Under the pieces are notes generated by a model. The model did no database searches, was not told where the DNA came from, and saw only the letters and a list, made by a program, of their open reading frames with translations. Position numbers and translations under genes: made by a program. Below are positions 48,717-62,686 of a DNA stretch of 64,000 nt, in pieces. The number at the start of each line of letters is the position of its first letter. Position 1 is the stretch's first letter. This stretch comes from Actinomycetota bacterium (GTDB lineage: Bacteria; Actinomycetota; UBA4738; HRBIN12): positions 1,342 to 65,341 of the forward strand of contig JBGGNG010000003.1 of NCBI GenBank assembly GCA_041287635.1, given 5' to 3'.

Positions 48717-51272
48717 CTACGCCGATGCGAGCAGGTCCCGCACCTCCGAGGCAGACTCGCACCGGAGGGCTCGTGCGGCGATCGCCCGGGCGTCGACGAG
48801 GGTCGTCGACCGGACGGCGTCCTTCACGGTCGCGATCGCGGGCACCGCCATCGAGAGCTCGCGGACGCCGAGCCCGAGGAGGAGCGGGGTCGCGAGCTCG
48901 TCGCCGGCGAGCTCGCCGCAGACGCCCACCCAGCGACCGTGCGCCTCGGCGCCTTCGGCCGTTGCCGCGATCAGGCGCAGCACGGCCGGGTGGAGCGGAT
49001 CGTTGAGCTCGGCGACGTGCTCGTTGCCGCGATCGGCTGCGAGCGTGTACTGGGTCAGGTCGTTGGTGCCGATCGAGAAGAAGTCGGCTCTCGCAGCGAG
49101 GGTGCCGGCCGTCAGCGCGGCGGACGGCACCTCCACCATGATGCCGATCTCGATCGCCGGTGAGAGGCCGATCCCCTCGCGAGCGAGGTCGACGGCTGCG
49201 CGTGCCGCGTCGAGCTCCCCGGTCGTCGCGACCATGGGGAACATGACGCGGACGGGGTGCTCGACGCCCACGCGGAGCAACGCCCGGAGCTGGGCCAGGA
49301 GCAGCTCGGGACGGGCGAGACCGAGCCGGATGCCGCGCACCCCCAGGAACGGATTCGCCTCGTGCGCCTGCGCCAGGGCGGCCACCGGCTTGTCGGCCCC
49401 CGCGTCGAGCGTGCGGACCAGCAGCGGTCGTCCGTCGAGCGCCTCGGCGGCGGCCCGGTAGGCGGCTTCCTGCTCGTGTTCGTCCGGCAGCGTGTCGCGA
49501 TCCATGAAGAGGAACTCGGTCCGGAACAGCCCGATGCCGTCTGCGCCCGCGCCGACCGCGGCCGCGACCTCGGCCGGTCCACCCACATTCGCAGCCACCT
49601 CGATGGCTGTGCCGTCGAGGGTCGTGGCGGGTTCGCCGGCCCTCACCAGCGACGTCGCCAGTCGTGCGGCCCGTCCCCGTCGCTCGGACTCGAACGTCTC
49701 GACGACGTCGGGCGGCGGGTCGACGACGACTTCCCCACGAGCGCCGTCGACGGCGAGCGGCGATCCCTCCGTGAGCGAGAGCACCCGTGGTCCCACGCCC
49801 ACGACCGCCGGGATACCGAGGGCTCGCGCCAGCACGGCGGCGTGCGACGTCGGGCCGCCGTGGGCGGTGACGATGCCAAGGGCCGTCGCCGGATCGAGAC
49901 CCGCCGTGTCGGCAGGGGTCAGGTCGGCGGCGACGAGGATGCCGGGTTCGTCGAGCCGCGGTGCCGGCACGACGAGGCCGAGGATGCGCGCCAGCACCTG
50001 CGTACCGACGCTCCGCAAGTCGATCGCCCGCGCGCGCATGTACTCGTCGTCGAGCACGTCCCAGCCGACAGCCACGGCCTCGACGGCGTCGCGCCACGCG
50101 GCTGCAGCGTTGCGTCCCCGAGCGGCGATCGCCTCGCGCGCCGGCCCGAGCAGGGCCGCGTCGCGCAGGAACAGCAGGTGGGCGTCGAAGATGCGCGCCT
50201 CGTCCTCGCCGGCTCGTTCGGCGACCGCGTTGCGCTGTGCGACGATCGCATCCCCGGTCGCGCGAACGGCCGCCTCGAGTGCGGAGAGCTCCGAGGCGGG
50301 ATCCGCCCCCGGGGTGTCGGGCACGTCGAGTGCTGGCGTGTGGAAGCGCCGCAGCTCGCCGACGGCGACACCGGGCGAGGCGGCGAAGCCCGTCACTACG
50401 GTTCCCTCGACGGCACCGCTCTCCATCGCGTCGACGGGCTGAAGATGCGCCTCGTCCGTCGTCGCGTTCGAGGCTCCGGTCGCTTCGGGTGGCTCGTCGA
50501 ACCGGCGGGCGGCGAGCGCTTCGAGCGCCGCGATCGCCTCGGTCGCGCCGGGCCCTTCCGCCCGCACCTCCACGTCGTGGCCCGCGCGCACGCCGAGCGT
50601 CGCAACGGCGTTCAAGCTGCTCGCGTCGGCCGGACCGGCACCGGTCGTGAGGTTGCGCACGGTGACCACGGCCTCGTACCCGGCCGCGGTCTGCACGAAC
50701 CGGGCCGCGGGCCGCGCGTGAAGCCCGTGAGGGACCTCGACCGGGAACACGGCAACCACGGTCGGGCCCTCAGGCGGCGCGGCGCCGGCCGCACCGTCGG
50801 AGCCTGGCTCGCCTCCCTCGGCCCGGCCGGCCCCCTCGTCGGTCCCCGTCCCGAGGTGAGCGATCTTGCCGGCCAAGCCGGAGCGCGCCTCCGTGGCGAC
50901 CGCATCGAGGGGCATGCCCAGCTTGGCGGTGACCGCCGCCGCGACGGCCCCTTCGACGAGGGGAGCCTCGCAGAGCAGGATGCGCTTTCGCCGCTCCTCG
51001 CCGATCAGATCGACCGCCATCTCGGCCGAGAGCACCGCGCTCCCGAGGTCCATCAACACCAGCACTCCGTCGTCGGACCATGCTCGCTCGATCGCCTGCA
51101 TCACGAGGACGGCGTCGGTCCCGATCGGGTGCTCGGGACCGTCGGGACCATCGACAGCCTCGAGCCCTCCCGCGGTTTCGAGCTTCACCTCGGCCCCGCC
51201 CATCTCGCGCGCGAGCTCGGCGACGCCTTCGGCGATGCGGGCGCTGTGGGAGACGATGACGACGCCGACCAC
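48717..51272 (-). CDS. dhaM: Triple fusion: DhaM (EIIA-Man-like) + HPr + complete Enzyme I (PEP-protein phosphotransferase)
   Basis: The N-terminus MVGVVIVSHSARIAEG is DhaM-type. The HPr domain shows VPHGLHARPAARF. Enzyme I shows GGPTSHAAVLARALGIP, FFSIGTNDLTQY and VCGELAGD. Confidence 0.9.
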   Translation of the reverse strand: MVGVVIVSHSARIAEGVAELAREMGGAEVKLETAGGLEAVDGPDGPEHPIGTDAVLVMQAIERAWSDDGVLVLMDLGSAVLSAEMAVDLIGEERRKRILLCEAPLVEGAVAAAVTAKLGMPLDAVATEARSGLAGKIAHLGTGTDEGAGRAEGGEPGSDGAAGAAPPEGPTVVAVFPVEVPHGLHARPAARFVQTAAGYEAVVTVRNLTTGAGPADASSLNAVATLGVRAGHDVEVRAEGPGATEAIAALEALAARRFDEPPEATGASNATTDEAHLQPVDAMESGAVEGTVVTGFAASPGVAVGELRRFHTPALDVPDTPGADPASELSALEAAVRATGDAIVAQRNAVAERAGEDEARIFDAHLLFLRDAALLGPAREAIAARGRNAAAAWRDAVEAVAVGWDVLDDEYMRARAIDLRSVGTQVLARILGLVVPAPRLDEPGILVAADLTPADTAGLDPATALGIVTAHGGPTSHAAVLARALGIPAVVGVGPRVLSLTEGSPLAVDGARGEVVVDPPPDVVETFESERRGRAARLATSLVRAGEPATTLDGTAIEVAANVGGPAEVAAAVGAGADGIGLFRTEFLFMDRDTLPDEHEQEAAYRAAAEALDGRPLLVRTLDAGADKPVAALAQAHEANPFLGVRGIRLGLARPELLLAQLRALLRVGVEHPVRVMFPMVATTGELDAARAAVDLAREGIGLSPAIEIGIMVEVPSAALTAGTLAARADFFSIGTNDLTQYTLAADRGNEHVAELNDPLHPAVLRLIAATAEGAEAHGRWVGVCGELAGDELATPLLLGLGVRELSMAVPAIATVKDAVRSTTLVDARAIAARALRCESASEVRDLLASA

Positions 51273-54351: not shown

Positions 54352-55848
54352 TCACTCGACCCAGTCGAACGTACGCGTTACGGCCTTCTTCCACAGCGCA
54401 TATTCCTTCTCGCGCTCGGCCGCATCCATCATGGGTGTCCACTCCTTGTCCTTGCCCCAGTTCCCGCGCAGGTCGTCGATCGTTGCCCAGAAGCCCGTCG
54501 CCAGACCGGCGGCGTACGCGGCGCCGAGGGACGTGGTTTCGGCCACCGTCGGACGGATCACCGGCACGCCGAGAACGTCGGCCTGGGTCTGCATCAGCAG
54601 GTCGTTGTGCACCATGCCGCCGTCGACCTTCAGTGAGGTGAGCGCGACGCCGGAGTCGGCGTTCATCGCGTCGACGACTTCACGGCTCTGCCACGCCGTG
54701 GCTTCGAGCGTGGCTCGCGCGATGTGCCCGGCTGTCACGAAGCGCGTGAGCCCTGCGATCACGCCGCGCGCCTCGCTGCGCCAGTACGGCGCGAAGAGGC
54801 CCGAGAACGCCGGCACGAAGTACACGCCGCCGTTGTCGTCGACGGTCTTCGCGAGGGCCTCGACGTCGGGGGAGGCCTCGATCATCTTCAGGTTGTCGCG
54901 CAGCCACTGCACCAGGGCGCCCGTGATCGCGATCGAGCCTTCGAGCATGTACGCGGCCGGCTGGTCTCCGATCTTGTAGCCCACGCCCGTGATCAGCCCG
55001 TTCTTCGATTGGACCGCGTCCGTGCCCGTGTTCAGCAGCAGGAACGACCCCGTGCCGTAAGTGTTCTTGGCCTCGCCGACGTCGAAGCAGGTCTGGCCGA
55101 ACAGGGCCGCCTGCTGATCACCGAGGTCGCCGGCCACCGGCACGCCGGCGGCCGCACCGACCGCCTCGCCGTAGACCTGGCTCGACGAGCGGATCTCGGG
55201 GAGCATCGAGCGAGGCACGCCGATCGCATTCAGGAGGTCGTCATCCCAGTCGAGGGTTTCGAGGTTCATCAGCATGGTGCGGCTCGCATTGGTCACGTCC
55301 GTGACGTGCTGGCCACCGTCGACGCCGCCCGTGAGGTTCCAGATGCACCATGTGTCGATGTTGCCGAACGCCAACTCGCCCGCATCGGCTCGTGCCTGCG
55401 CCCCCTCGACGTTGTCGAGGATCCACCGGACCTTGGGGCCGGAGAAGTAGGTGGCGATCGGGAGTCCCGTCTTCTCGCGGAAGCGATCCTGGCCGCCGTC
55501 GGCGATCAGCTCGTTACAGAGCTGATCGGTGCGGGTGTCCTGCCACACGAGCGCGTTGTGGATCGCCTGCCCCGTGGAGCGGTCCCACACCACCGTGGTC
55601 TCACGCTGGTTCGTGATACCGATCGCGGCGATGTCGCCCGCCGACAGGCTCGCCTTCTGAAGGGCTCCCGCGATCACATCCTGGCTGCGGGCCCAGATCT
55701 CCGCAGGGTCGTGCTCGACCCACCCCGGCTTGGGGAAGATCTGCTCGTGCTCCTTCTGGTCGACGCCCACGACCTGGCCGCCGTGGTCGAAGATCATGAA
55801 GCGCGTGCTGGTCGTGCCCTGGTCGAGGGCACCGACGTACTCAGCCAT
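54352..55848 (-). CDS. glpK: Glycerol kinase
   Basis: [17 protein letters not shown] and full-length FGGY collinearity. GGAGG SD. Confidence 0.95.
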
Positions 55849-56530
55849 GAGGGGCCTCCTCCGATGGTCGGCCGTCGCCGGCCCATGTGTCGGCGACGGT
55901 GCGCAACAACAGGTAGCTCGAGGTGGCGCCGGGGTCCTGATGCCCAGCGCTTCGTTCGCCGAGGTAGCTCGCTCGGCCCTTCCTTGCCACGAGGGGGATC
56001 GTGGCCGTCATGCCCTCTTCGGCCGCGTCGGCCGAGCGACGGAGCGCCGCGGGCAGATCCGCTCCGTCGGCGACCGCGGCGGCGAAGGCGTCGCGACCGG
56101 GCATCAAGGCGTCGAGCATCGTCTTGTCGCCAGCCTCGGCCTTGCCGCGTGCCTGCACGCCGGAGACGGCCGCTGCGAGGGCGGCAGCCCAATCCTCAGG
56201 CGTGATCTCGTCCTTCCCTGCGGTGGCGACGCCCAGCTGCAGGAACAACGTGCCGTAGAGCGGTCCTCCCGCGCCTCCCACGGTCGACACCAGCGTCATG
56301 CCCACCGTCTTGAACAGCGCCCCGATGTCGCCTGGTGCGGCCCCGTCGAGCTTGCCGAGCACGGCTTGGAATCCCCGGTCCATGTTGATGCCGTGGTCCG
56401 CATCGCCGATCGCGGAGTCCAGCTCCGTGAGGTACGTCTTGTTCTCGGCGATCGTGGCGGTGAAGGTCTTGAGCCATGCGACGACGTCGTCGTACGACAC
56501 GCCTGCGGTGCCGCTCATCTCGGCACCCAC
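55841..56530 (-). CDS. dhaL: Dihydroxyacetone kinase ADP-binding subunit
   Basis: [34 protein letters not shown] and [21 protein letters not shown]. The start is 56530 or Met 56518. It overlaps the glpK start by 8 nt. Confidence 0.9.
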
Positions 56531-56561: not shown

Positions 56562-57563
56562 TCAGACCCCCCACCGCAGACCGGCCGTGTTCACCGGAGC
56601 GTCCCAGAGCTTCGTGAAGTCGTCGCTCAGCTTCAGCAGCGTGATCGAGCATCCGGCCATCTCGAGCGAGGTGATGTACGAACCGATCAGGTTGCGCGAG
56701 ATCGTGATTCCCCGGCCCGACAGGAACTTGTTGAGCTCGTTGAAGACCACGTAGAGCTCGATCAACGGCGTGCCACCCATGCCGTTCACGAACGCCAGCG
56801 CTTGGTCGCCCTTGCGGAACGGAAGGTCGTCGACGATCGCGGTCGCCATCATGTCGACGATCTCCGACGCCTGCTTCATCTTCATGCGCTCGCGCCCCGG
56901 CTCGCCGTGGATGCCCACGCCCATCTCGATCTCGTCGTCGCCGAGCTCGAACGTGGGGGAGCCTGCGGCCGGCACGGTGCATGAGGTGAGCGCCATACCC
57001 ATCGAGCGGCCGTTGGCGTTCACCTCTCGGCAGATGTCGGCGACCTCCTTCAGTGGCCGCTTCTGCTCGGCGGCCGCTCCGGCGATCTTCTCCATCAGCA
57101 CGGTCGTGCCCACGCCGCGACGCCCCGCCGTGTAGAGCGAGTCCTGCACGGCCACATCGTCGTCGACGATCACGGACTCGACGTCGGTGCCTTCGGCACG
57201 ACAGAGCTCCGCCGCCATCTCGAAGTTCATGACGTCGCCGGTGTAGTTCTTCACGATGTGCACGACGCCGGCTCCGCCGTCGACGGCCTTGGTCGCCGCC
57301 TCCATCTGATCAGGGGTGGGCGACGTGAACACCTCGCCAGGACATGCGGCGTCGAGCATGCCCATGCCGACGAAGCCACCATGCATCGGTTCGTGTCCGG
57401 ATCCACCACCCGAGACGAGCGCGACCTTGCCCTGCACGGGCGCGTCGGCCCGCGAGATGACGTACGGATCGTAGGACACCTTCACGAGGTCGGGGTGTGC
57501 CGCCTCGATACCTTGGAGTTCTTCCCGGACGACGTCCGCCGGGTCGTTGATCAACTTCTTCAT
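56562..57563 (-). CDS. dhaK: Dihydroxyacetone kinase dihydroxyacetone-binding subunit
   Basis: MKKLINDP...[18 protein letters not shown] trimmed the start to ATG 57563. Confidence 0.9.
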
Positions 57564-57628
57564 GCGTGCCTCGCTTCCCGTCGTGGAGGGGCGGCGGGAG
57601 GGCTCACGGGCCCTCCCGCCGGCCGTCT

Positions 57629-58357
57629 CTAGCCGAAGATCGCGTCGGCCGCCAGCGCCCCGAGCACGCCGCCCACGATCGGGCCGACGACCGGGATCCA
57701 CGAGTAAGCCCAGTCGGAGCTCCCCTTGCCGGCGATCGGCAGGATCGCGTGCATGATGCGAGGTCCGAGGTCGCGAGCCGGGTTGATCGCGTAGCCGGTC
57801 GGGCCACCCAACGCCATGCCGATCACGAGGACCAGCAGGCCCACGGGCAGGGCACCGGTCGCGAGGGCGCCGGACAACGCCTCCTCGCCGATCGCGAGCC
57901 CCGAGATCGACAGGATGCCGAAGACCAGCACGAACGTGCCGATGATCTCGGTGATCAAGTTGGCGGGGGTGTTGCGGATCGCCGGACCGGTCGAGAACAC
58001 CGCGAGCTTGAGCCCGGCGTCGTCCGTCTCGCTCCAGTGCGCCAGGTAGGCGAGGTACACGAGGGTGGCGCCGATGAACGCGCCGACGAACTGGCCGGCG
58101 ATCGCGGTCGGCACGTCTTCCCAGGGGAAGGCGTCGATCGACGCGAGGCCGACCGTCACCGCGGGGTTGAGGTGCGCGACGCCCCCCTCGACCGCAAGGC
58201 TACCGAGCACGCCGACGAACACGGCCATCGCCCAGGCCCAGGTGATGACCACCCATCCCGAGTTCTGCGCTTTCGACTTGTTGAGGAGCACACCGGCCAC
58301 GACGCCGTCACCGAGCAAGACGAGCAACGCCGTACCGACCACCTCTCCGAGGAACAT
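57629..58357 (-). CDS. glpF: Glycerol uptake facilitator (MIP/aquaporin family)
   Basis: Two NPA boxes, HLNPAVTVG and [10 protein letters not shown]. The start is set at ATG 58357 (MFLGEVVGT). The longer track ORF adds a non-MIP N-terminus. Confidence 0.85.
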
Positions 58358-58539
58358 CTGAGCGACCACCCCCTCCGTAGCGGGCCCCACCGTCGGGACC
58401 GTGTCGACTCGAGCCAACTCGGTTCGTAACGAGATGTCAATAGTCTTGTGACGCCGAAGCCATCTCGACAAGGCCATCCATCGTTCGGTATCGTCGAACA
58501 GCCACGCACTGGAAGTTGACATGGCCTGGAGGTGGTTCG

Positions 58540-59229
58540 ATGGTTGCGGCGGTGACCGAACGGGCTGACAACGCTCGCGAGAGGGTGTTCGACGTGTACG
58601 ACGCCACCATGATCCGCCGTTGGGTGCGCGGGTCCGCCGACGAGGTCGCGGCGAACCGAGACTTCCTGACCCAACTCGATGCGGCCATCGGAGACGCCGA
58701 CCACGGGATCAACATGGATCGCGGATTCTCGGCCGCCGTGACCGATCTCGACGCTACCTCCGACCTGCCCGCAGGCGAGCTGTTGATCCGGGTCGGGGGC
58801 ACCCTGATCTATCGCGTCGGGGGCGCCGCCGGGCCGCTCTTCGGCACCTGCCTTCGCCGAGCGGGGGAGGCGTTGGGCGACGCCGAGTCGTTCGACGCCG
58901 AGGGCCTGTGGAAGGCGTTGCGATCCGGTCTCGACGGCATCCAGGGGCTCGGCGCGGCGGAGGAAGGCGACAAGACGATCGTCGATGCTTACGCACCCGC
59001 GCTCGTGGCGTTCGAGCGGGAGCTGCGGGGGGGCGGCGACGGGGCCTCGGCGTCACGCAAGGCGGCCGAGGCCGCACGCGAGGGCATGCGTGCGACGGTG
59101 CCGATGCAGGCGCGGAAGGGCCGCGCCTCGTACCTGGGACCGAGGAGCGTGGGGCATCAGGATCCGGGGGCCACCTCGACCTCCTACCTGTTCGCGGCGC
59201 TCGCTCGGTCGTTGGACGGCGGTCGTTGA
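58540..59229 (+). CDS. DAK2-domain protein, DhaL paralog
   Basis: [34 protein letters not shown] and [29 protein letters not shown] lies 4 nt before ATG 58540. Confidence 0.8.
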   Translation: MVAAVTERADNARERVFDVYDATMIRRWVRGSADEVAANRDFLTQLDAAIGDADHGINMDRGFSAAVTDLDATSDLPAGELLIRVGGTLIYRVGGAAGPLFGTCLRRAGEALGDAESFDAEGLWKALRSGLDGIQGLGAAEEGDKTIVDAYAPALVAFERELRGGGDGASASRKAAEAAREGMRATVPMQARKGRASYLGPRSVGHQDPGATSTSYLFAALARSLDGGR

Positions 59230-59252
59230 CCGGGCCGGCACCGCGCAAGGGC

Positions 59253-60038
59253 ATGATCCAGTCCGTCGAGCGAGCTTCCCGGATCCTCAAGGTGCTCGGC
59301 ACGGGCACCTCACGGATGGGCGTCACCGAGATCGCCGATCGGCTCGGGCTCGCCAAGGGAACGGCCTACGGGCTGTTGCGGACCCTCGAGGCCCAGGAGC
59401 TCGTCGAACAGGACCCCGAGACCGACAAGTACCGGCTCGGACCGGCGATGCTGCAGCTCGGCAACGCATTCCTCGACAACCACGAGCTCCGTGCGCGCTC
59501 GTTGCTATGGGCGGACTCGCTCGCCTCGCGAACCGGCGACGCCGTGCGGGTCGGGGTGCTGCACGGGACGAACGTGCTGATCGTGCACCACGTGTTCCGC
59601 CCGGACAACTCGGTGCAGATCCTCGAGGTGGGGGCGTCGATACCGTGGCACGCATGCGCCCTCGGCAAGGCCATCGTCGCCTTCCTCCCCGAGCCGTCGC
59701 GCCGCGCCCTGCTCGGGCTCGAGCTGGCGCCGCTCACCGGCCGGACGGTGACCGACCCGGCCGTCCTCGAGGAGGTGCTCGTCGCGGTCGCCGCGGAGGG
59801 CACCGCACTCGAGGACGAGGAGGCGATCGTCGGGGAAGCGGAGATCGCCGCGCCGGTCTTCGACGACCGTGGTCATTCCGTGGGAGCGATCGGCGTCGTC
59901 GGCCCGGTCGAGCGACTCCTGCCCGAGGGCCGGCAGGCCGCCGCGGTGATCGCGGCGGTGCGCGACACGTCGCGAGGCCTCTCCCGCGACATGGGCGCCG
60001 GACGCGTCGGCGCGCGGAGCGGCGCAACGCGTCGGTGA
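59253..60038 (+). CDS. IclR family transcriptional regulator (GylR-like)
   Basis: MIQSVERASRILKVLG...GVTEIADRLGLAKGTAYGLLRTLE, followed by an IclR effector domain. This is the real part of track ORF 58620..60038. Confidence 0.85.
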   Translation: MIQSVERASRILKVLGTGTSRMGVTEIADRLGLAKGTAYGLLRTLEAQELVEQDPETDKYRLGPAMLQLGNAFLDNHELRARSLLWADSLASRTGDAVRVGVLHGTNVLIVHHVFRPDNSVQILEVGASIPWHACALGKAIVAFLPEPSRRALLGLELAPLTGRTVTDPAVLEEVLVAVAAEGTALEDEEAIVGEAEIAAPVFDDRGHSVGAIGVVGPVERLLPEGRQAAAVIAAVRDTSRGLSRDMGAGRVGARSGATRR

Positions 60039-60076: not shown

Positions 60077-61102
60077 ATGAGCGAGGCCCCGCGATACGTC
60101 ACCGTCGAGGACTACCTCCCGGTCGCGCGTGCGACGGTCTCATCCGACGTCTGGGACTACTACGAGGGTGGTGCCGGCGACGAGTGGACGCTCGCGGAGA
60201 ACCGCAAGGCGTTCGATCGGTGGATGCTGCGCCCCCGGTTCCTGCGGGGTGCGGGTTCGCCCGACACCTCGACGGCCATGCTCGGTGCGCCGCTGCGGTT
60301 CCCGGTCGCGGTGGCGCCGTGGGCGTACCAGCGGCTGGCACATCCCGACGGGGAGCTCGCCACCGCGCGGGCAGCCGCCGCCGCAGGCACGCTGATGGTC
60401 GTGTCCTCGACCACCGAGTCCTTCCTCGAGGAGGTCGCGACCGCGAGCGAGGGGCCGAAGTGGTGGCAGCTCTACGTGGCGCAGGACCGAGGGTTCACCG
60501 AGGCGATGCTCGAGCGCGTGGTCTCGGCGGGGTATGCGGCGATCTGCTGGACCGTCGACTTCCCGGTGAGCGGTCTGCGTCACCGCGACACGCGGAGCGG
60601 ATTCGTGATGCCGATCGGCATCGGGGCGAGTGACTACCTGTTCGACGCCTCCCTCACCTGGGACGACCTGGGCTGGATCAAGGATCGCGCGCCCGGTCTA
60701 CCCGTGGTGGTGAAGGGCCTCCTCACGGCCGAGGACGCCGAGCTCGCGGTTCAGGCCGGCGCCGATGCGATCGTCGTCTCGAACCACGGCGGACGCCAGC
60801 TCGACCGGTCGCCTGCGGGGCTCGACGCATTGCCCGAGGTGGCGGCGCAGGTCTCAGGGAGGGTGCCGGTGCTGGCGGACGGCGGCGTTCGGCGTGGCAC
60901 CGACGTTCTGACAGCGCTGGCCCTCGGGGCATCGGTGGTGCTCGTCGGGCGTCCGACGATCTGGGGCCTCGCCGCCGAAGGGGAGAGGGGCGTCACCGGC
61001 GTGCTCGAGATCCTGCGCGCAGAGTTCGAGAACGCGATGGCGCTCACCGGATGCCGCTCAGTCGATGAGATCGGTCCAGCGCTCGTGGCGCCCGCACCGT
61101 AG
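60077..61102 (+). CDS. FMN-dependent alpha-hydroxy acid dehydrogenase/oxidase (LldD/glycolate oxidase family)
   Basis: VVSNHGGRQLD, GGVRRGTDV and overall TIM-barrel family collinearity. Confidence 0.85.
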   Translation: MSEAPRYVTVEDYLPVARATVSSDVWDYYEGGAGDEWTLAENRKAFDRWMLRPRFLRGAGSPDTSTAMLGAPLRFPVAVAPWAYQRLAHPDGELATARAAAAAGTLMVVSSTTESFLEEVATASEGPKWWQLYVAQDRGFTEAMLERVVSAGYAAICWTVDFPVSGLRHRDTRSGFVMPIGIGASDYLFDASLTWDDLGWIKDRAPGLPVVVKGLLTAEDAELAVQAGADAIVVSNHGGRQLDRSPAGLDALPEVAAQVSGRVPVLADGGVRRGTDVLTALALGASVVLVGRPTIWGLAAEGERGVTGVLEILRAEFENAMALTGCRSVDEIGPALVAPAP

Positions 61103-61140
61103 TCGGGCGGTCCCGAAGCGCGGTCTGGGACCATCTGGAC

Positions 61141-61971
61141 ATGAGCGGATACGACCTGCACACCCACTCCACCTTCAGCGACGGCACGGAGACGCCCACC
61201 CACAACGTGAAGCTCGCGGTCGAGCGCGGGCTGGACGGCCTCGGCGTCACGGACCACGACACGTTCGCCGGCCTCGACGAAGCGGCCACGGCCGCCGATG
61301 GCGCCGACCTCGACATCGTGCCCGGCATCGAGTTCTCGGCCGAGTACGACGGGGCCAGCCTGCACGTGCTCGGATACTGGGTCGACCCCGCCCACGGACC
61401 GCTGCAGGAAGAGCTGAAGCGGCTGACCGACACCCGGTTCCGCCGCGGCGAGATGATGATCGAGAAGCTGCAGGAAGCTGGGTACGAGATCTCGTTCGAC
61501 GACGTCCGGCGCATCGCCGGCGACGACCTGATCGCCCGACCCCACGTCGCGCAGGCCATGGTCGAAGCGGGCATCGTCGGGACCGAGAAGGAGGCGTTCG
61601 ATCGCTACATCGCCGACGGCGGCGCCGCCTACGTGCCCAAGCACGCGCTGGACCCGGTCGATGCGCTGCGGCTGATCGGGGACGCGGGGGGAGTGTGCGT
61701 GCTCGCCCACCCGGCGATGTGGAAGGGCAACGGCTCGGTGCCCGATGCGCTGATCGAGCGGATGGCCGAGGGTGGCATGGTGGGGCTCGAGGTCGACCAT
61801 CCCGATCACGACGATGCCACCCGGGCCTACTACCGAGCGATGGCCGAGCGACTCGACCTAGTGCCGACGGGGTCGAGCGACTGCCACGGCGCTCGGTACG
61901 ACTTCCGGCTCGGATGCAACACGACCCCCGCCGAGCTCGTCGACGAGCTGAAGCGGCGCGCGGGTCGATAG
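61141..61971 (+). CDS. PHP domain metal-dependent phosphoesterase (TrpH/YciV-like)
   Basis: YDLHTHSTFSDG, VTDHDT, VLAHP and SDCHG. Confidence 0.85.
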   Translation: MSGYDLHTHSTFSDGTETPTHNVKLAVERGLDGLGVTDHDTFAGLDEAATAADGADLDIVPGIEFSAEYDGASLHVLGYWVDPAHGPLQEELKRLTDTRFRRGEMMIEKLQEAGYEISFDDVRRIAGDDLIARPHVAQAMVEAGIVGTEKEAFDRYIADGGAAYVPKHALDPVDALRLIGDAGGVCVLAHPAMWKGNGSVPDALIERMAEGGMVGLEVDHPDHDDATRAYYRAMAERLDLVPTGSSDCHGARYDFRLGCNTTPAELVDELKRRAGR

Positions 61972-61996
61972 GCGTCGGGTCCCGGCCGGCTCGCGG

Positions 61997-62686
61997 GTGG
62001 CTACGATGCGAACCGTGACTCGCGCTGCCCTGGAGATGGTGTTCTTCGACATCGGCGGCGTGATGTACGACGACTCGATCTACGCGCGTTCGTGGATGAA
62101 GGCGCTGCGCGAGTCGGGGGCGTCGTTCACCGACGAGGAGTTCGACGCTGAGTACGCTGCCGCGCGGGCAGCACAATCGGAGTCGTTCCGACGCCGGCTC
62201 ACCGCACGATTCCTGGGATCGGTCGACGACCTCGGGACCGTGGAGGCCCGCGCCGCGCGCTACTGGGCGTATCCGCCGACGGCCCTCTACCCCGATGTCG
62301 TGCCCTGCCTCGAGGCGCTCGAGGGTCGTTTCCGGCTCGGGGTGATCGCGAACCAGCCCAGCTCGGTGCGCCAGGCGATGGCTCGCGACGGACTCACGCG
62401 GTTCTTCGAGGTCTGGGGGGTGAGCGACGACCTCGGGTTGCAGAAACCCGACCCGAAGCTCTTCTCGCACGTGCTCCATACGGCGGGCGTGTCACCGGCG
62501 GCCACCGTGATGCTCGGCGACCGTCTCGACTACGACGTCCGCCCGGCGAAGGCTGCAGGCATGCACGCGGTGTGGGTGCTGCGCGGCGAGGCCCCCGACG
62601 AGCCCACCCCCGCGCAGCTCGCGCAGGCCGATGCGTCGATCGACGATCTCGGTGAGGTTCCTGCGTTGCTCGCCTCCTGGTCGTAA
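61997..62686 (+). CDS. HAD family hydrolase
   Basis: VFFDIGGVM (motif I variant), ANQPS and GDRLDYDV. Confidence 0.75.
   Translation: MATMRTVTRAALEMVFFDIGGVMYDDSIYARSWMKALRESGASFTDEEFDAEYAAARAAQSESFRRRLTARFLGSVDDLGTVEARAARYWAYPPTALYPDVVPCLEALEGRFRLGVIANQPSSVRQAMARDGLTRFFEVWGVSDDLGLQKPDPKLFSHVLHTAGVSPAATVMLGDRLDYDVRPAKAAGMHAVWVLRGEAPDEPTPAQLAQADASIDDLGEVPALLASWS

What the first reader, a model, noticed from the sequence alone, without database searches (positions are those of the whole stretch)
58358..60038. DhaL paralog co-transcribed with an IclR regulator, divergent from the glycerol operon: a possible new Dha-subunit sensor
Opposite glpF, across a 182-bp comparatively AT-rich spacer, lies a second DAK2-domain protein. 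It retains every nucleotide- and Mg-binding motif of the operon's own DhaL ([44 protein letters not shown]). A GylR-like IclR regulator follows 23 nt later. In E. coli, DhaL and DhaK act as co-activator and co-repressor of the AAA+ regulator DhaR. In Lactococcus, a DhaK paralog (DhaQ) partners a TetR regulator (DhaS). A DhaL paralog paired with an IclR protein would be a third, independent recruitment of a Dha kinase subunit into transcription control, reporting the ADP/ATP (phosphorylation) state of the pathway. The spacer has only weak imperfect palindromes (58418-58433 CTCGGTTCGTAACGAG; 58483-58499 GTTCGGTATCGTCGAAC) as candidate operators.
Basis: partly seen in the sequence, partly recalled or inferred. 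Interest (0 to 1): 0.6.

Follow-up and report, generated by a model that had tools for sequence, protein, structure and literature searches.

The report
Orphan DhaL coupled to GylR-type regulator
A family of soil actinobacteria keeps a spare, fully intact copy of one dihydroxyacetone-kinase subunit joined by overlapping codons to the repressor of its glycerol genes, which suggests but does not prove that the subunit tells the repressor whether dihydroxyacetone is present.

Summary
A second full-length DhaL (58540-59229) lies across a 182-bp spacer from glpF-dhaK-dhaL1-glpK. An IclR gene follows it, and its most likely start (TTG 59226) overlaps the dhaL2 stop codon by 4 nt.

- **Regulator.** It is GylR-like: 50% identical to a Streptomyces protein in the gylR position. 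It is kept in all 13 orthologous spacers and upstream of dha operons elsewhere.
- **History.** DhaL2 is the lineage's original DhaL. Sister families carry one operon, op-glpF-dhaK-dhaL-ptsI/dhaM-op-iclR. In the window's family a glpK-linked operon of another DhaL clade replaced it, and only dhaL and iclR survived, in 43 sampled genomes.
- **State of DhaL2.** It is under purifying selection (dN/dS 0.05-0.3). It keeps 63 of 67 universally conserved positions and has its own fixed charged residues.
- **State of the IclR.** It has a clade-specific Glu at a position that aligns with an effector-pocket residue of AllR.

A co-regulator role is my preferred reading (about 0.4). No interaction was tested. 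GylR is known to sense G3P and DHAP directly, so a conventional mechanism remains a strong rival. No paper on a DhaL-IclR pairing was found.

The parts
58540..59229 (+). dhaL2: orphan, full-length DhaL of clade A (229 aa from ATG 58540; TTG 58516 and GTG 58552 are alternative starts)
   Evidence: Pfam Dak2 162 bits and TIGR02365 216 bits. Gap-free alignment to E. coli DhaL. AF2 pLDDT 88 and TM 0.94 to 3PNL_B. Residues 1-14 are below pLDDT 50.
59226..60038 (+). iclR: GylR-like IclR-family regulator. The TTG start overlaps the dhaL2 TGA by 4 nt (alternative ATG 59253).
   Evidence: HTH_IclR plus IclR_C. xTGA overlap in 14/17 loci. Open frame from TTG. 50% identical to the gylR-position protein of a Streptomyces gylR-glpFKD locus.
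58483..58499 (.). GylR-type operator palindrome GTTCGGTATCGTCGAAC
   Evidence: Conserved in all 13 orthologous spacers. Single match in the window. The exact degenerate form occurs once in the genome. The same motif lies upstream of glpF or iclR in other dha loci and at a Streptomyces gylR locus. It resembles the DNase I footprints of S. clavuligerus GylR (PMC9732521).
58465..58494 (+). Predicted dhaL2-iclR promoter TCGACA-N18-TATCGT, with its -10 inside the operator
   Evidence: The only promoter-like site in 58300-58620; shuffles give a mean of 0.0. TTGAC(A/G)-N18-CATAGT stands at the same place in L005-L007.
58516..58544 (+). Conserved TTGACA-N17-GATGGT element of unknown role (a second promoter?)
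   Evidence: Conserved in WIN, L004-L007 and L010. It is not a coding constraint, because L004 has a 1-nt length difference there.
58421..58441 (-). Conserved CGTTC...GTCAAT. On the minus strand this reads TTGAC(A) as a candidate glpF -35 followed by a GAACG operator-like half-site.
   Evidence: Conserved across the spacers. The function is inferred.
57629..58357 (-). glpF, first gene of the divergent glycerol/DHA operon
   Evidence: Pfam MIP 128 bits
56562..57566 (-). dhaK (clade-B-type operon). It is the only DhaK of most related genomes.
   Evidence: TIGR02363 493 bits. Most of the 20 genomes checked hold a single DhaK.
55841..56530 (-). dhaL1, the operon's own DhaL (clade B)
   Evidence: TIGR02365 247 bits. 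Tree.
54352..55848 (-). glpK
   Evidence: ORF translation. Orthologues in related loci.
48717..51272 (-). dhaM-HPr-EI fusion, the phosphoryl donor for DhaL
   Evidence: Pfam EIIA-man, PTS-HPr and the PEP-utilising domains
60077..62686 (+). FMN-dependent 2-hydroxyacid dehydrogenase-like gene, PHP gene and HAD gene, probably in the same transcript as dhaL2-iclR
   Evidence: Gaps of 38, 38 and 25 nt. No promoter or terminator calls. Metatranscriptome contigs span the iclR/FMN_dh junction. Conserved downstream in L004-L008 and others.

Best explanation
**Shown by sequence comparison**
- The IclR gene encodes a GylR-type repressor.
- Its operator is the conserved palindrome GTTCGGTATCGTCGAAC in the shared spacer.
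- That operator covers the predicted -10 of the dhaL2-iclR promoter and lies upstream of the divergent glpF-dhaK-dhaL1-glpK...dhaM-HPr-EI operon. One protein can therefore control both units.
- DhaL2 is the lineage's original (clade-A) DhaL. The old operon op-glpF-dhaK-dhaL-ptsI/dhaM-op-iclR was replaced by a glpK-linked clade-B operon. Only dhaL and iclR were kept, and they became a bicistron with overlapping stop and start codons.

**Inferred**
- DhaL2 is kept because it is the regulator's protein co-effector.
- Its tightly bound nucleotide would be converted to ATP by DhaM~P when no dihydroxyacetone is present.
- It would return to ADP when DhaK-bound dihydroxyacetone takes the phosphate.
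- One of the two forms would bind the IclR effector domain and change its hold on the operator.
- Small molecules (G3P, DHAP) may act as well.

The confidence given is for the co-effector step. For the GylR-type repressor and operator part I would put confidence at about 0.85.
For: **Conserved pairing**
- 43 sampled genomes of the family (at least 13 genera) have DhaL2 with the IclR directly downstream, and in nearly all DhaL1 about 2.7 kb away on the other strand.
- No genome that keeps the dha operon was found to have lost DhaL2.

**Selective retention**
- Sister families have a single clade-A operon in which dhaL and iclR are separated by ptsI/dhaM.
- The tree puts the orphan DhaL2s inside clade A and DhaL1 in clade B; both clades have SH-aLRT 99.

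**DhaL2 is functional**
- dN/dS is 0.05-0.15 at unsaturated distances.
- 63 of 67 universally conserved columns are kept, including the Asp triad and all nucleotide loops.
- The DhaL fold is predicted with confidence.

**Signs of a new constraint**
- Residues fixed only in the orphans are A97, R128, I147, E159, R160, R163 and P201.
- E159, R160 and R163 sit at the end of helix 148-163 that is far from the GDKT loop.
- The family's IclRs have an invariant Glu197 where all 21 other relatives, and GylR, have Gly, Ser or Ala. That residue aligns with the Cys of GLNCIA in AllR.

**Other points**
- Three positions (D60, R/K174, L217) match the clade-B DhaL1 of the same genomes (two of them clade B at large) and not clade-A relatives. 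This fits continued work with the clade-B kinase parts.
- The stop/start overlap is present in 14 of 17 loci.
- Metatranscriptome contigs span the dhaL2/iclR junction in four runs.
- Precedent: L. lactis DhaS needs the DhaK paralog DhaQ (PMC7590123). E. coli DhaR uses DhaL and DhaK (own knowledge; Bachler 2005, listed).
Against: - No interaction test could be run.
- S. clavuligerus GylR leaves its operator on G3P or DHAP alone (PMC9732521). Both are products of the divergent operon.
- Related IclRs with the same operator sit beside dha operons that have no extra DhaL (L032, L046, L061, L067, L068, L070).
- dhaL-iclR adjacency already exists in L019, where dhaK is still upstream. The pair can therefore be read as an operon remnant.
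- Four-nucleotide overlaps are common in high-G+C operons.
- All apparent Dak2-IclR fusion proteins turned out to be frameshifted reads.
- The orphan-specific residues come from one clade, so shared ancestry inflates their apparent conservation.
Confidence: 0.4

Rival explanations
1. Conventional GylR circuit plus a second working DhaL. The IclR senses G3P and/or DHAP in its own pocket, as Streptomyces GylR does. DhaL2 never touches it. DhaL2 is a second ADP-carrying subunit that serves the single DhaK. It might provide DhaL from the regulator's autoregulated promoter, or have different kinetics with DhaM-HPr-EI.
For: - GylR effectors and operator are known (PMC9732521).
- The window's IclR is 50% identical to a syntenic GylR and has the same operator type.
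- DhaL2 keeps every catalytic motif and shows clade-B-like residues near the active-site loop.
- Every genome with the pair also has DhaK.
- When the dha operon is lost, DhaL2 is lost too but the IclR stays (G133).
Against: - A redundant subunit should be lost now and then. It is kept in all 43 sampled genomes that keep the locus.
- DhaK is not co-expressed from the regulator's promoter, so a stand-alone DhaL cannot act as a kinase.
- The Glu197 change in the pocket and the orphan-specific surface residues go unexplained.
Confidence: 0.35
2. DhaL2 works with a partner other than DhaK or the IclR. Candidates are the products of the downstream FMN_dh-PHP-HAD genes or the second Dak pair on another contig. 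Dak2 domains also serve non-DhaK partners, as in fatty-acid kinase FakA-FakB.
For: - The downstream genes are probably co-transcribed and are conserved in many related loci.
- Fold search shows the Dak2 domain of FakA as a structural relative.
- The window's own genome has a third Dak2 next to a second DhaK.
Against: - The third Dak pair is present in only some genomes of the family.
- FMN_dh is separated from iclR by about 1 kb in several loci and is missing in others.
- No DegV/FakB-like or DhaK-like gene is in the operon.
- DhaL2 passes the DhaL equivalog model well above its cut-off.
Confidence: 0.1
3. Relic. DhaL2 has no function of its own. Its reading frame is kept only because translation of iclR depends on the upstream ORF through the overlapping stop and start.
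For: - The xTGA overlap is conserved.
- The pair descends from an ordinary operon.
Against: - dN/dS of 0.05-0.3 over distances where dS is saturated.
- All Mg- and nucleotide-binding residues are invariant. A mere spacer ORF would not keep them.
- L012 and L018 have lost the overlap but keep DhaL2.
Confidence: 0.05

Closest known systems
GylR of Streptomyces (IclR-family repressor of gylR and glpF-glpK-glpD; S. clavuligerus study PMC9732521)
   Same: - IclR family.
- 50% identity to the protein in the gylR position of a Streptomyces gylR-glpFKD locus.
- Same palindromic operator type (GTTCGGCATTGTCGAAC-like), placed at its own promoter and at the glpF promoter.
- Controls glycerol genes.
   Different: - Here the regulator is the second cistron behind an orphan DhaL.
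- The target operon also carries dhaK, dhaL and dhaM.
- The family's proteins have Glu at the pocket position where GylR has Ser.
- The window's protein is closer (58-60%) to Dha-operon-linked paralogues than to GylR itself.
E. coli DhaR with DhaL (co-activator) and DhaK (co-repressor)
   Same: A Dha-kinase ADP-binding subunit would report the phosphorylation state of the pathway to a transcription factor. DhaL2 is 42-43% identical to E. coli DhaL and has the same fold.
   Different: - DhaR is an AAA+ enhancer-binding protein. Here the factor is an IclR/GylR-type repressor.
- E. coli uses its one catalytic DhaL. Here a separate paralog is encoded with the regulator.
- Binding is shown in E. 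coli and is untested here.
Lactococcus lactis DhaS (TetR family) with DhaQ (DhaK paralog)
   Same: A dedicated paralog of a kinase subunit is encoded together with the regulator and next to the dha operon (PMC7590123).
   Different: - The paralog there is of DhaK (Dak1 domain, binds dihydroxyacetone). Here it is of DhaL (Dak2 domain, binds nucleotide).
- The regulator family there is TetR, here IclR.
- NCBIfam has a specific DhaQ model, so DhaQ is recognisable as a diverged family. DhaL2 still scores as a plain DhaL.
Canonical PTS-dependent DhaL subunit (TIGR02365)
   Same: All defining sequence and fold features are present.
   Different: - There is no DhaK on its strand or in its operon.
- It coexists with a second, operon-encoded DhaL of another clade.
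- It has orphan-specific fixed residues away from the nucleotide site.

Membership tests
DhaL, ADP-binding subunit of PTS-dependent dihydroxyacetone kinase (Pfam PF02734, TIGR02365) | Dak2 domain and DhaL equivalog model above their curated cut-offs | tested here: met
   PF02734 162.4 bits (cut-off 27). TIGR02365 216.3 bits (cut-off 138.3).
DhaL, ADP-binding subunit of PTS-dependent dihydroxyacetone kinase (Pfam PF02734, TIGR02365) | Mg-binding Asp triad (E. coli D30, D35, D37) and the nucleotide loops GGxx[15 protein letters not shown]...GHxDPGA | tested here: met
   D47, D52 and D54 and all loops are present and invariant in 16 orphan sequences.
DhaL, ADP-binding subunit of PTS-dependent dihydroxyacetone kinase (Pfam PF02734, TIGR02365) | All-helical DhaL fold | tested here: met
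   AF2 pLDDT 88.4 and pTM 0.86. Foldseek TM 0.94 and rmsd 1.6 A to 3PNL_B.
DhaL, ADP-binding subunit of PTS-dependent dihydroxyacetone kinase (Pfam PF02734, TIGR02365) | Encoded next to its DhaK partner in one operon | tested here: not met
   The only nearby dhaK is on the other strand across the spacer and has its own dhaL1.
DhaL, ADP-binding subunit of PTS-dependent dihydroxyacetone kinase (Pfam PF02734, TIGR02365) | Phosphorylated by DhaM and donates the phosphate to DhaK-bound dihydroxyacetone | not testable with these tools
   This needs an in vitro phosphotransfer assay.
GylR-like IclR-family regulators | HTH_IclR plus IclR_C architecture | tested here: met
   PF09339 60 bits and PF01614 121 bits.
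GylR-like IclR-family regulators | Sequence kinship with a regulator in the gylR position of gylR-glpF-glpK-glpD | tested here: met
   50% identity to the L096 protein of Streptomyces sp. NBC_00133. Dha-linked paralogues are closer, at 58-60%.
GylR-like IclR-family regulators | Palindromic 17-18-bp operator of the GTTCGGCATTGTCGAAC type at its own and the target promoter | tested here: met
   58483-58499 is conserved in 13 spacers. The motif is present at the Streptomyces gylR locus and matches published footprints. Binding itself was not tested.
GylR-like IclR-family regulators | Released from DNA by G3P and DHAP | not testable with these tools
   The pocket-aligned residue 197 is Glu in this family and Ser in GylR. 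The effect is unknown.
Dha-kinase-subunit co-regulator systems (DhaR-DhaL/DhaK; DhaS-DhaQ) | Kinase subunit or its paralog encoded with, or acting on, the regulator of the dha operon | tested here: met
   dhaL2 and iclR form a bicistron beside the operon, conserved in 43 genomes. This shows gene arrangement only.
Dha-kinase-subunit co-regulator systems (DhaR-DhaL/DhaK; DhaS-DhaQ) | Physical binding of the subunit to the transcription factor that changes its activity | not testable with these tools
   No multimer prediction or coordinates were available. The apparent natural fusions are artefacts.
Dha-kinase-subunit co-regulator systems (DhaR-DhaL/DhaK; DhaS-DhaQ) | Regulator of the AAA+ EBP (DhaR) or TetR (DhaS) type | tested here: not met
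   The regulator is of the IclR family. At most this is an analogue, not a member.

The most novel reading that the evidence does not exclude
DhaL2 is a dedicated nucleotide-state sensor that binds the effector domain of a GylR-type IclR repressor. The PEP-dependent phosphorylation state of the Dha kinase, rather than (or in addition to) a small molecule, would then set transcription of the whole glycerol/DHA operon. As far as I know, this would be the first IclR-family regulator governed by a protein co-effector. It would also be a third independent recruitment of a Dha-kinase subunit into gene control. The clade-specific Glu197 in the pocket and the R128/E159/R160/R163 patch on DhaL2 would be the traces of that change.
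Probability: 0.35. Interest if true: 0.75.

Novelty: new variant of a known kind. Interest (0 to 1): 0.5.

Why it matters
Dihydroxyacetone is reactive and toxic. Two unrelated bacteria are known to sense it through kinase subunits rather than through a ligand pocket in the regulator.

A third case, with a different subunit (DhaL) and a different regulator family (IclR/GylR), would show that this solution is favoured by selection. It would also give the IclR family its first protein co-effector.

The system is well suited to testing:
- It has two small soluble proteins and a 17-bp operator.
- The candidate ligands are known.
- The organisms are abundant soil and rhizosphere actinobacteria.

Even if the sensor idea fails, two results stand. 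The GylR operator and regulon are extended to PTS-dependent Dha kinase operons across Actinomycetota. A clear case of operon replacement with selective retention of two genes is documented.

Tried and rejected
1. **Natural DhaL-IclR fusions as Rosetta-stone evidence.** Seven database proteins carry Dak2 plus IclR domains (P0015, P0104, P0121, P0122, P0123, P0159, P0190). All contain out-of-frame stretches. The one near-clean case (P0121) lies on a contig full of broken genes. Rejected as assembly artefacts.\n2. **DhaL1 as a pseudogene in L020/G017.** That would have shown DhaL2 substituting for it. The one-mismatch hits have G+C-rich centres.\n6. **Folding a fusion to look for docking.** MAFFT misaligned the DhaL rows, and the structure tool returns neither PAE nor coordinates. 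Not pursued.\n7. **Structural papers on the E. coli DhaK-DhaL and DhaR-DhaL complexes.** Not held in the library. Interface residues could not be mapped.\n8. **Metatranscriptome contigs.** They span the junctions, but depth is low, the contigs have no strand and DNA carry-over is possible. I count them as weak support only.
Full report
**1. What is there**

The window has 70% G+C. On the minus strand lie these genes:
- glpF (57629-58357)
- dhaK (56562-57566)
- dhaL1 (55841-56530)
- glpK (54352-55848)
- G3P dehydrogenase genes
- a dhaM-HPr-EI fusion (48717-51272)

A 182-bp spacer follows, with 60% G+C (53% in its core). On the plus strand lie:
- a second Dak2 gene, dhaL2 (58540-59229)
- an IclR-family gene ending at 60038
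- an FMN-dependent dehydrogenase-like gene, a PHP gene and a HAD gene, separated by gaps of 38, 38 and 25 nt

DhaL2 has these properties:
- It passes the DhaL equivalog model (216 bits, cut-off 138).
- It is 48% identical to DhaL1.
- It aligns without gaps to E. coli DhaL and keeps D30, D35 and D37.
- It folds as a DhaL (pLDDT 88; TM 0.94 to 3PNL_B).

**2. The junction**

In 14 of 17 related loci the IclR frame has a start codon that overlaps the dhaL2 stop (GTGA, ATGA or TTGA). In six of these the overlapping codon is the exact homologue of the window's Met-Ile-Gln start. In the window the overlap is TTGA at 59226-59229. The frame is open from there, and gene callers report the 270-residue form (P0001). 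L004 has no ATG at the later position.

The two genes are thus probably translationally coupled, not 23 nt apart. Metatranscriptome contigs from four rhizosphere runs span the dhaL2/iclR junction, and contigs from two of them span the iclR/FMN_dh junction. This is weak support, because depth is low and the contigs carry no strand.

**3. The operator and the regulator's identity**

GTTCGGTATCGTCGAAC (58483-58499) is kept in all 13 orthologous glpF-dhaL2 spacers. The consensus is GTTCGGyATnryCGAAC. It occurs once in the window, and its exact degenerate form occurs once in the genome.

The same GTTCG-N7-CGAAC motif is found at these places:
- upstream of glpF in dha operons of other lineages
- directly upstream of iclR in sister families
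- between iclR and an orphan dhaL in Streptomyces angustmyceticus

In Streptomyces sp. NBC_00133 the protein in the gylR position of gylR-glpF-glpK-glpD is 50% identical to the window's IclR. It is flanked by GTTCGACAATGCTGAAC and GTTCGGCAATGCCGACC.

For S. clavuligerus GylR, published DNase I footprints contain GTTCAGCATTGTCGAAT and GGTCGGCATTGTCGAAC. That protein represses gylR and the glp operon, and G3P or DHAP releases it (PMC9732521).

The window's regulator is therefore GylR-like, and the palindrome is its operator. The only promoter-like site in the spacer, TCGACA-N18-TATCGT (58465-58494), has its -10 in the centre of the palindrome. This predicts autorepression of dhaL2-iclR. How the operator acts on glpF is inferred only. 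A conserved TTGAC(A) on the minus strand (58440-58435) and a GAACG half-site lie between the operator and glpF.

**4. Where DhaL2 comes from**

A tree of 99 DhaLs has two well-supported clades (SH-aLRT 99 each).
- Clade A holds every orphan DhaL2. It also holds the sole DhaL of operons of the form op-glpF-dhaK-dhaL-(ptsI/dhaM)-iclR.
- Clade B holds DhaL1 and other DhaLs of dhaK-dhaL-glpK or dhaK-dhaL-dhaM-EI operons.

An order-level sample of 151 genomes gave these results:
- 43 genomes of the window's family (at least 13 genera) have DhaL2 with the IclR directly downstream. In nearly all of them DhaL1 lies about 2.7 kb away on the other strand.
- Some 30 genomes of the family lack the whole system.
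- Sister families have a single clade-A operon, with operators before glpF and before iclR.

The simplest history is that a clade-B glycerol/DHA operon replaced the clade-A glpF, dhaK and ptsI/dhaM, while dhaL and iclR alone were retained and joined.
- The nearest outgroup, L019, already has glpF-dhaK-dhaL-iclR.
- Its genome also holds a second orphan DhaL behind glpK, under its own operator.
- In G133 the dha genes are gone. A 33-residue DhaL2 tail and an intact IclR remain.

**5. Is DhaL2 alive, and has it changed?**

Nei-Gojobori dN/dS for DhaL2 is 0.05-0.15 at unsaturated distances and 0.2-0.33 at deep ones. That is similar to DhaL1 and the IclR.

Of 67 columns conserved in both canonical clades, 63 are conserved in the orphans. 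These include all Mg and nucleotide sites.

Seven residues are fixed in the orphans (14 or 15 of 16 sequences) and rare elsewhere: A97, R128, I147, E159, R160, R163 and P201. E159, R160 and R163 lie on one face at the C-terminal end of helix 148-163. That helix begins at the GDKT loop, so the patch is at the far end from the nucleotide (position inferred from topology).

Three positions (D60, R/K174, L217) match the clade-B DhaL1 of the same genomes and not clade-A relatives; the first two are also the commonest residue in clade B at large. This fits continued work with clade-B DhaK or DhaM.

On the regulator side, all 15 family IclRs have Glu197 (GEAEIA). All 21 other Dha-linked relatives have Gly, Ser or Ala at that position, and the two Streptomyces glpK-linked proteins (one in the gylR position) have Ser and Gly. 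This residue aligns with the Cys of GLNCIA in AllR. From my own knowledge that is Cys217, a glyoxylate-site residue. This is recalled, although the numbering is consistent with the printed sequence.

**6. Weighing the mechanism**

The facts that need explaining are these:
- Exactly dhaL and iclR were selectively and universally retained.
- DhaL2 is intact and under constraint, although a second DhaL sits beside the only DhaK.
- New constraints are present on both proteins.

A co-effector role for DhaL2 explains all three and has two precedents. One is L. lactis DhaS-DhaQ (PMC7590123). The other is E. coli DhaR with DhaL and DhaK (own knowledge; reference listed).

Against it:
- GylR works with small molecules that this very operon produces.
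- Related IclRs with the same operator manage dha operons without an extra DhaL.
- The adjacency descends from an ordinary operon.
- Nothing here tests binding.

I put the co-effector reading at about 0.4. I give 0.35 to a conventional GylR circuit with DhaL2 as a second working subunit, 0.1 to another partner, and 0.05 to a mere relic.

**7. Novelty**

GylR, its operator and its effectors are known. So are Dha-kinase subunits acting as co-regulators of other regulator families. The orphan DhaL welded to a GylR-type IclR is not described in the literature I could search. Earlier first-reader notes of this scan saw the same arrangement in other genomes. Those are not independent evidence. I class the finding as a new variant of a known kind, of moderate interest, and readily testable.

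Noticed in passing
window 60077-62686: An FMN-dependent 2-hydroxyacid dehydrogenase-like gene (best NCBIfam hits LldD and lactate oxidase, all below cut-off), a PHP-domain gene and a HAD hydrolase follow iclR with gaps of 38, 38 and 25 nt. No promoter or terminator is called. RNA contigs span the iclR/FMN_dh junction. They may belong to the GylR-type regulon, and their role in glycerol/DHA metabolism is unknown.
   Followed up: partly
window 58516-58544: A conserved TTGACA-N17/18-GATGGT lies immediately before, and overlaps, the dhaL2 ATG in several related loci. It could be a second promoter giving a leaderless mRNA that starts at GTG 58552. This is unresolved.
   Followed up: partly
G000 contig C79:10287-10874 (locus L002): The window's genome has a third Dak2 gene (38% identical to DhaL2) next to a second DhaK (52%), in the order dhaL-dhaK. 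This pair is present in only some genomes of the family.
   Followed up: no
L098 9543-11898 (genome of L019): An operon op-glpK-dhaL, with an orphan clade-B-like DhaL behind glpK and a perfect GTTCGATGATGCCGAAC operator upstream. The same genome has glpF-dhaK-dhaL-iclR on another contig. Two DhaLs per DhaK thus recur in a different layout.
   Followed up: partly
L094 7068-7939 (G133): A family member has lost the glycerol/DHA genes. It keeps a 33-residue C-terminal remnant of DhaL2 directly before an intact IclR.
   Followed up: partly
L092 2598-10118 (Streptomyces angustmyceticus): iclR and an orphan dhaL, each preceded by a GylR-type operator, sit next to a hydroxyphenylglycine-type cassette (two-domain glyoxalase-fold dioxygenase, FMN_dh, PhyH, aminotransferase). 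The genome's only dhaK-dhaL pair is on another contig, with no operator nearby.
   Followed up: partly
proteins P0015, P0104, P0121, P0122, P0123, P0159, P0190: Public protein collections hold apparent Dak2-IclR fusion proteins. They are frameshifted read-throughs from error-prone assemblies of high-G+C genomes and could mislead domain-architecture surveys.
   Followed up: yes
L026 6643-8427 and L084-L088: Clade-A dha operons of sister families carry a separate full-length Enzyme I (594 aa) right after dhaL. An unannotated stretch of about 0.7 kb lies before iclR (not examined; possibly DhaM/HPr). This is a private PTS relay organised differently from the window's DhaM-HPr-EI fusion.
   Followed up: no
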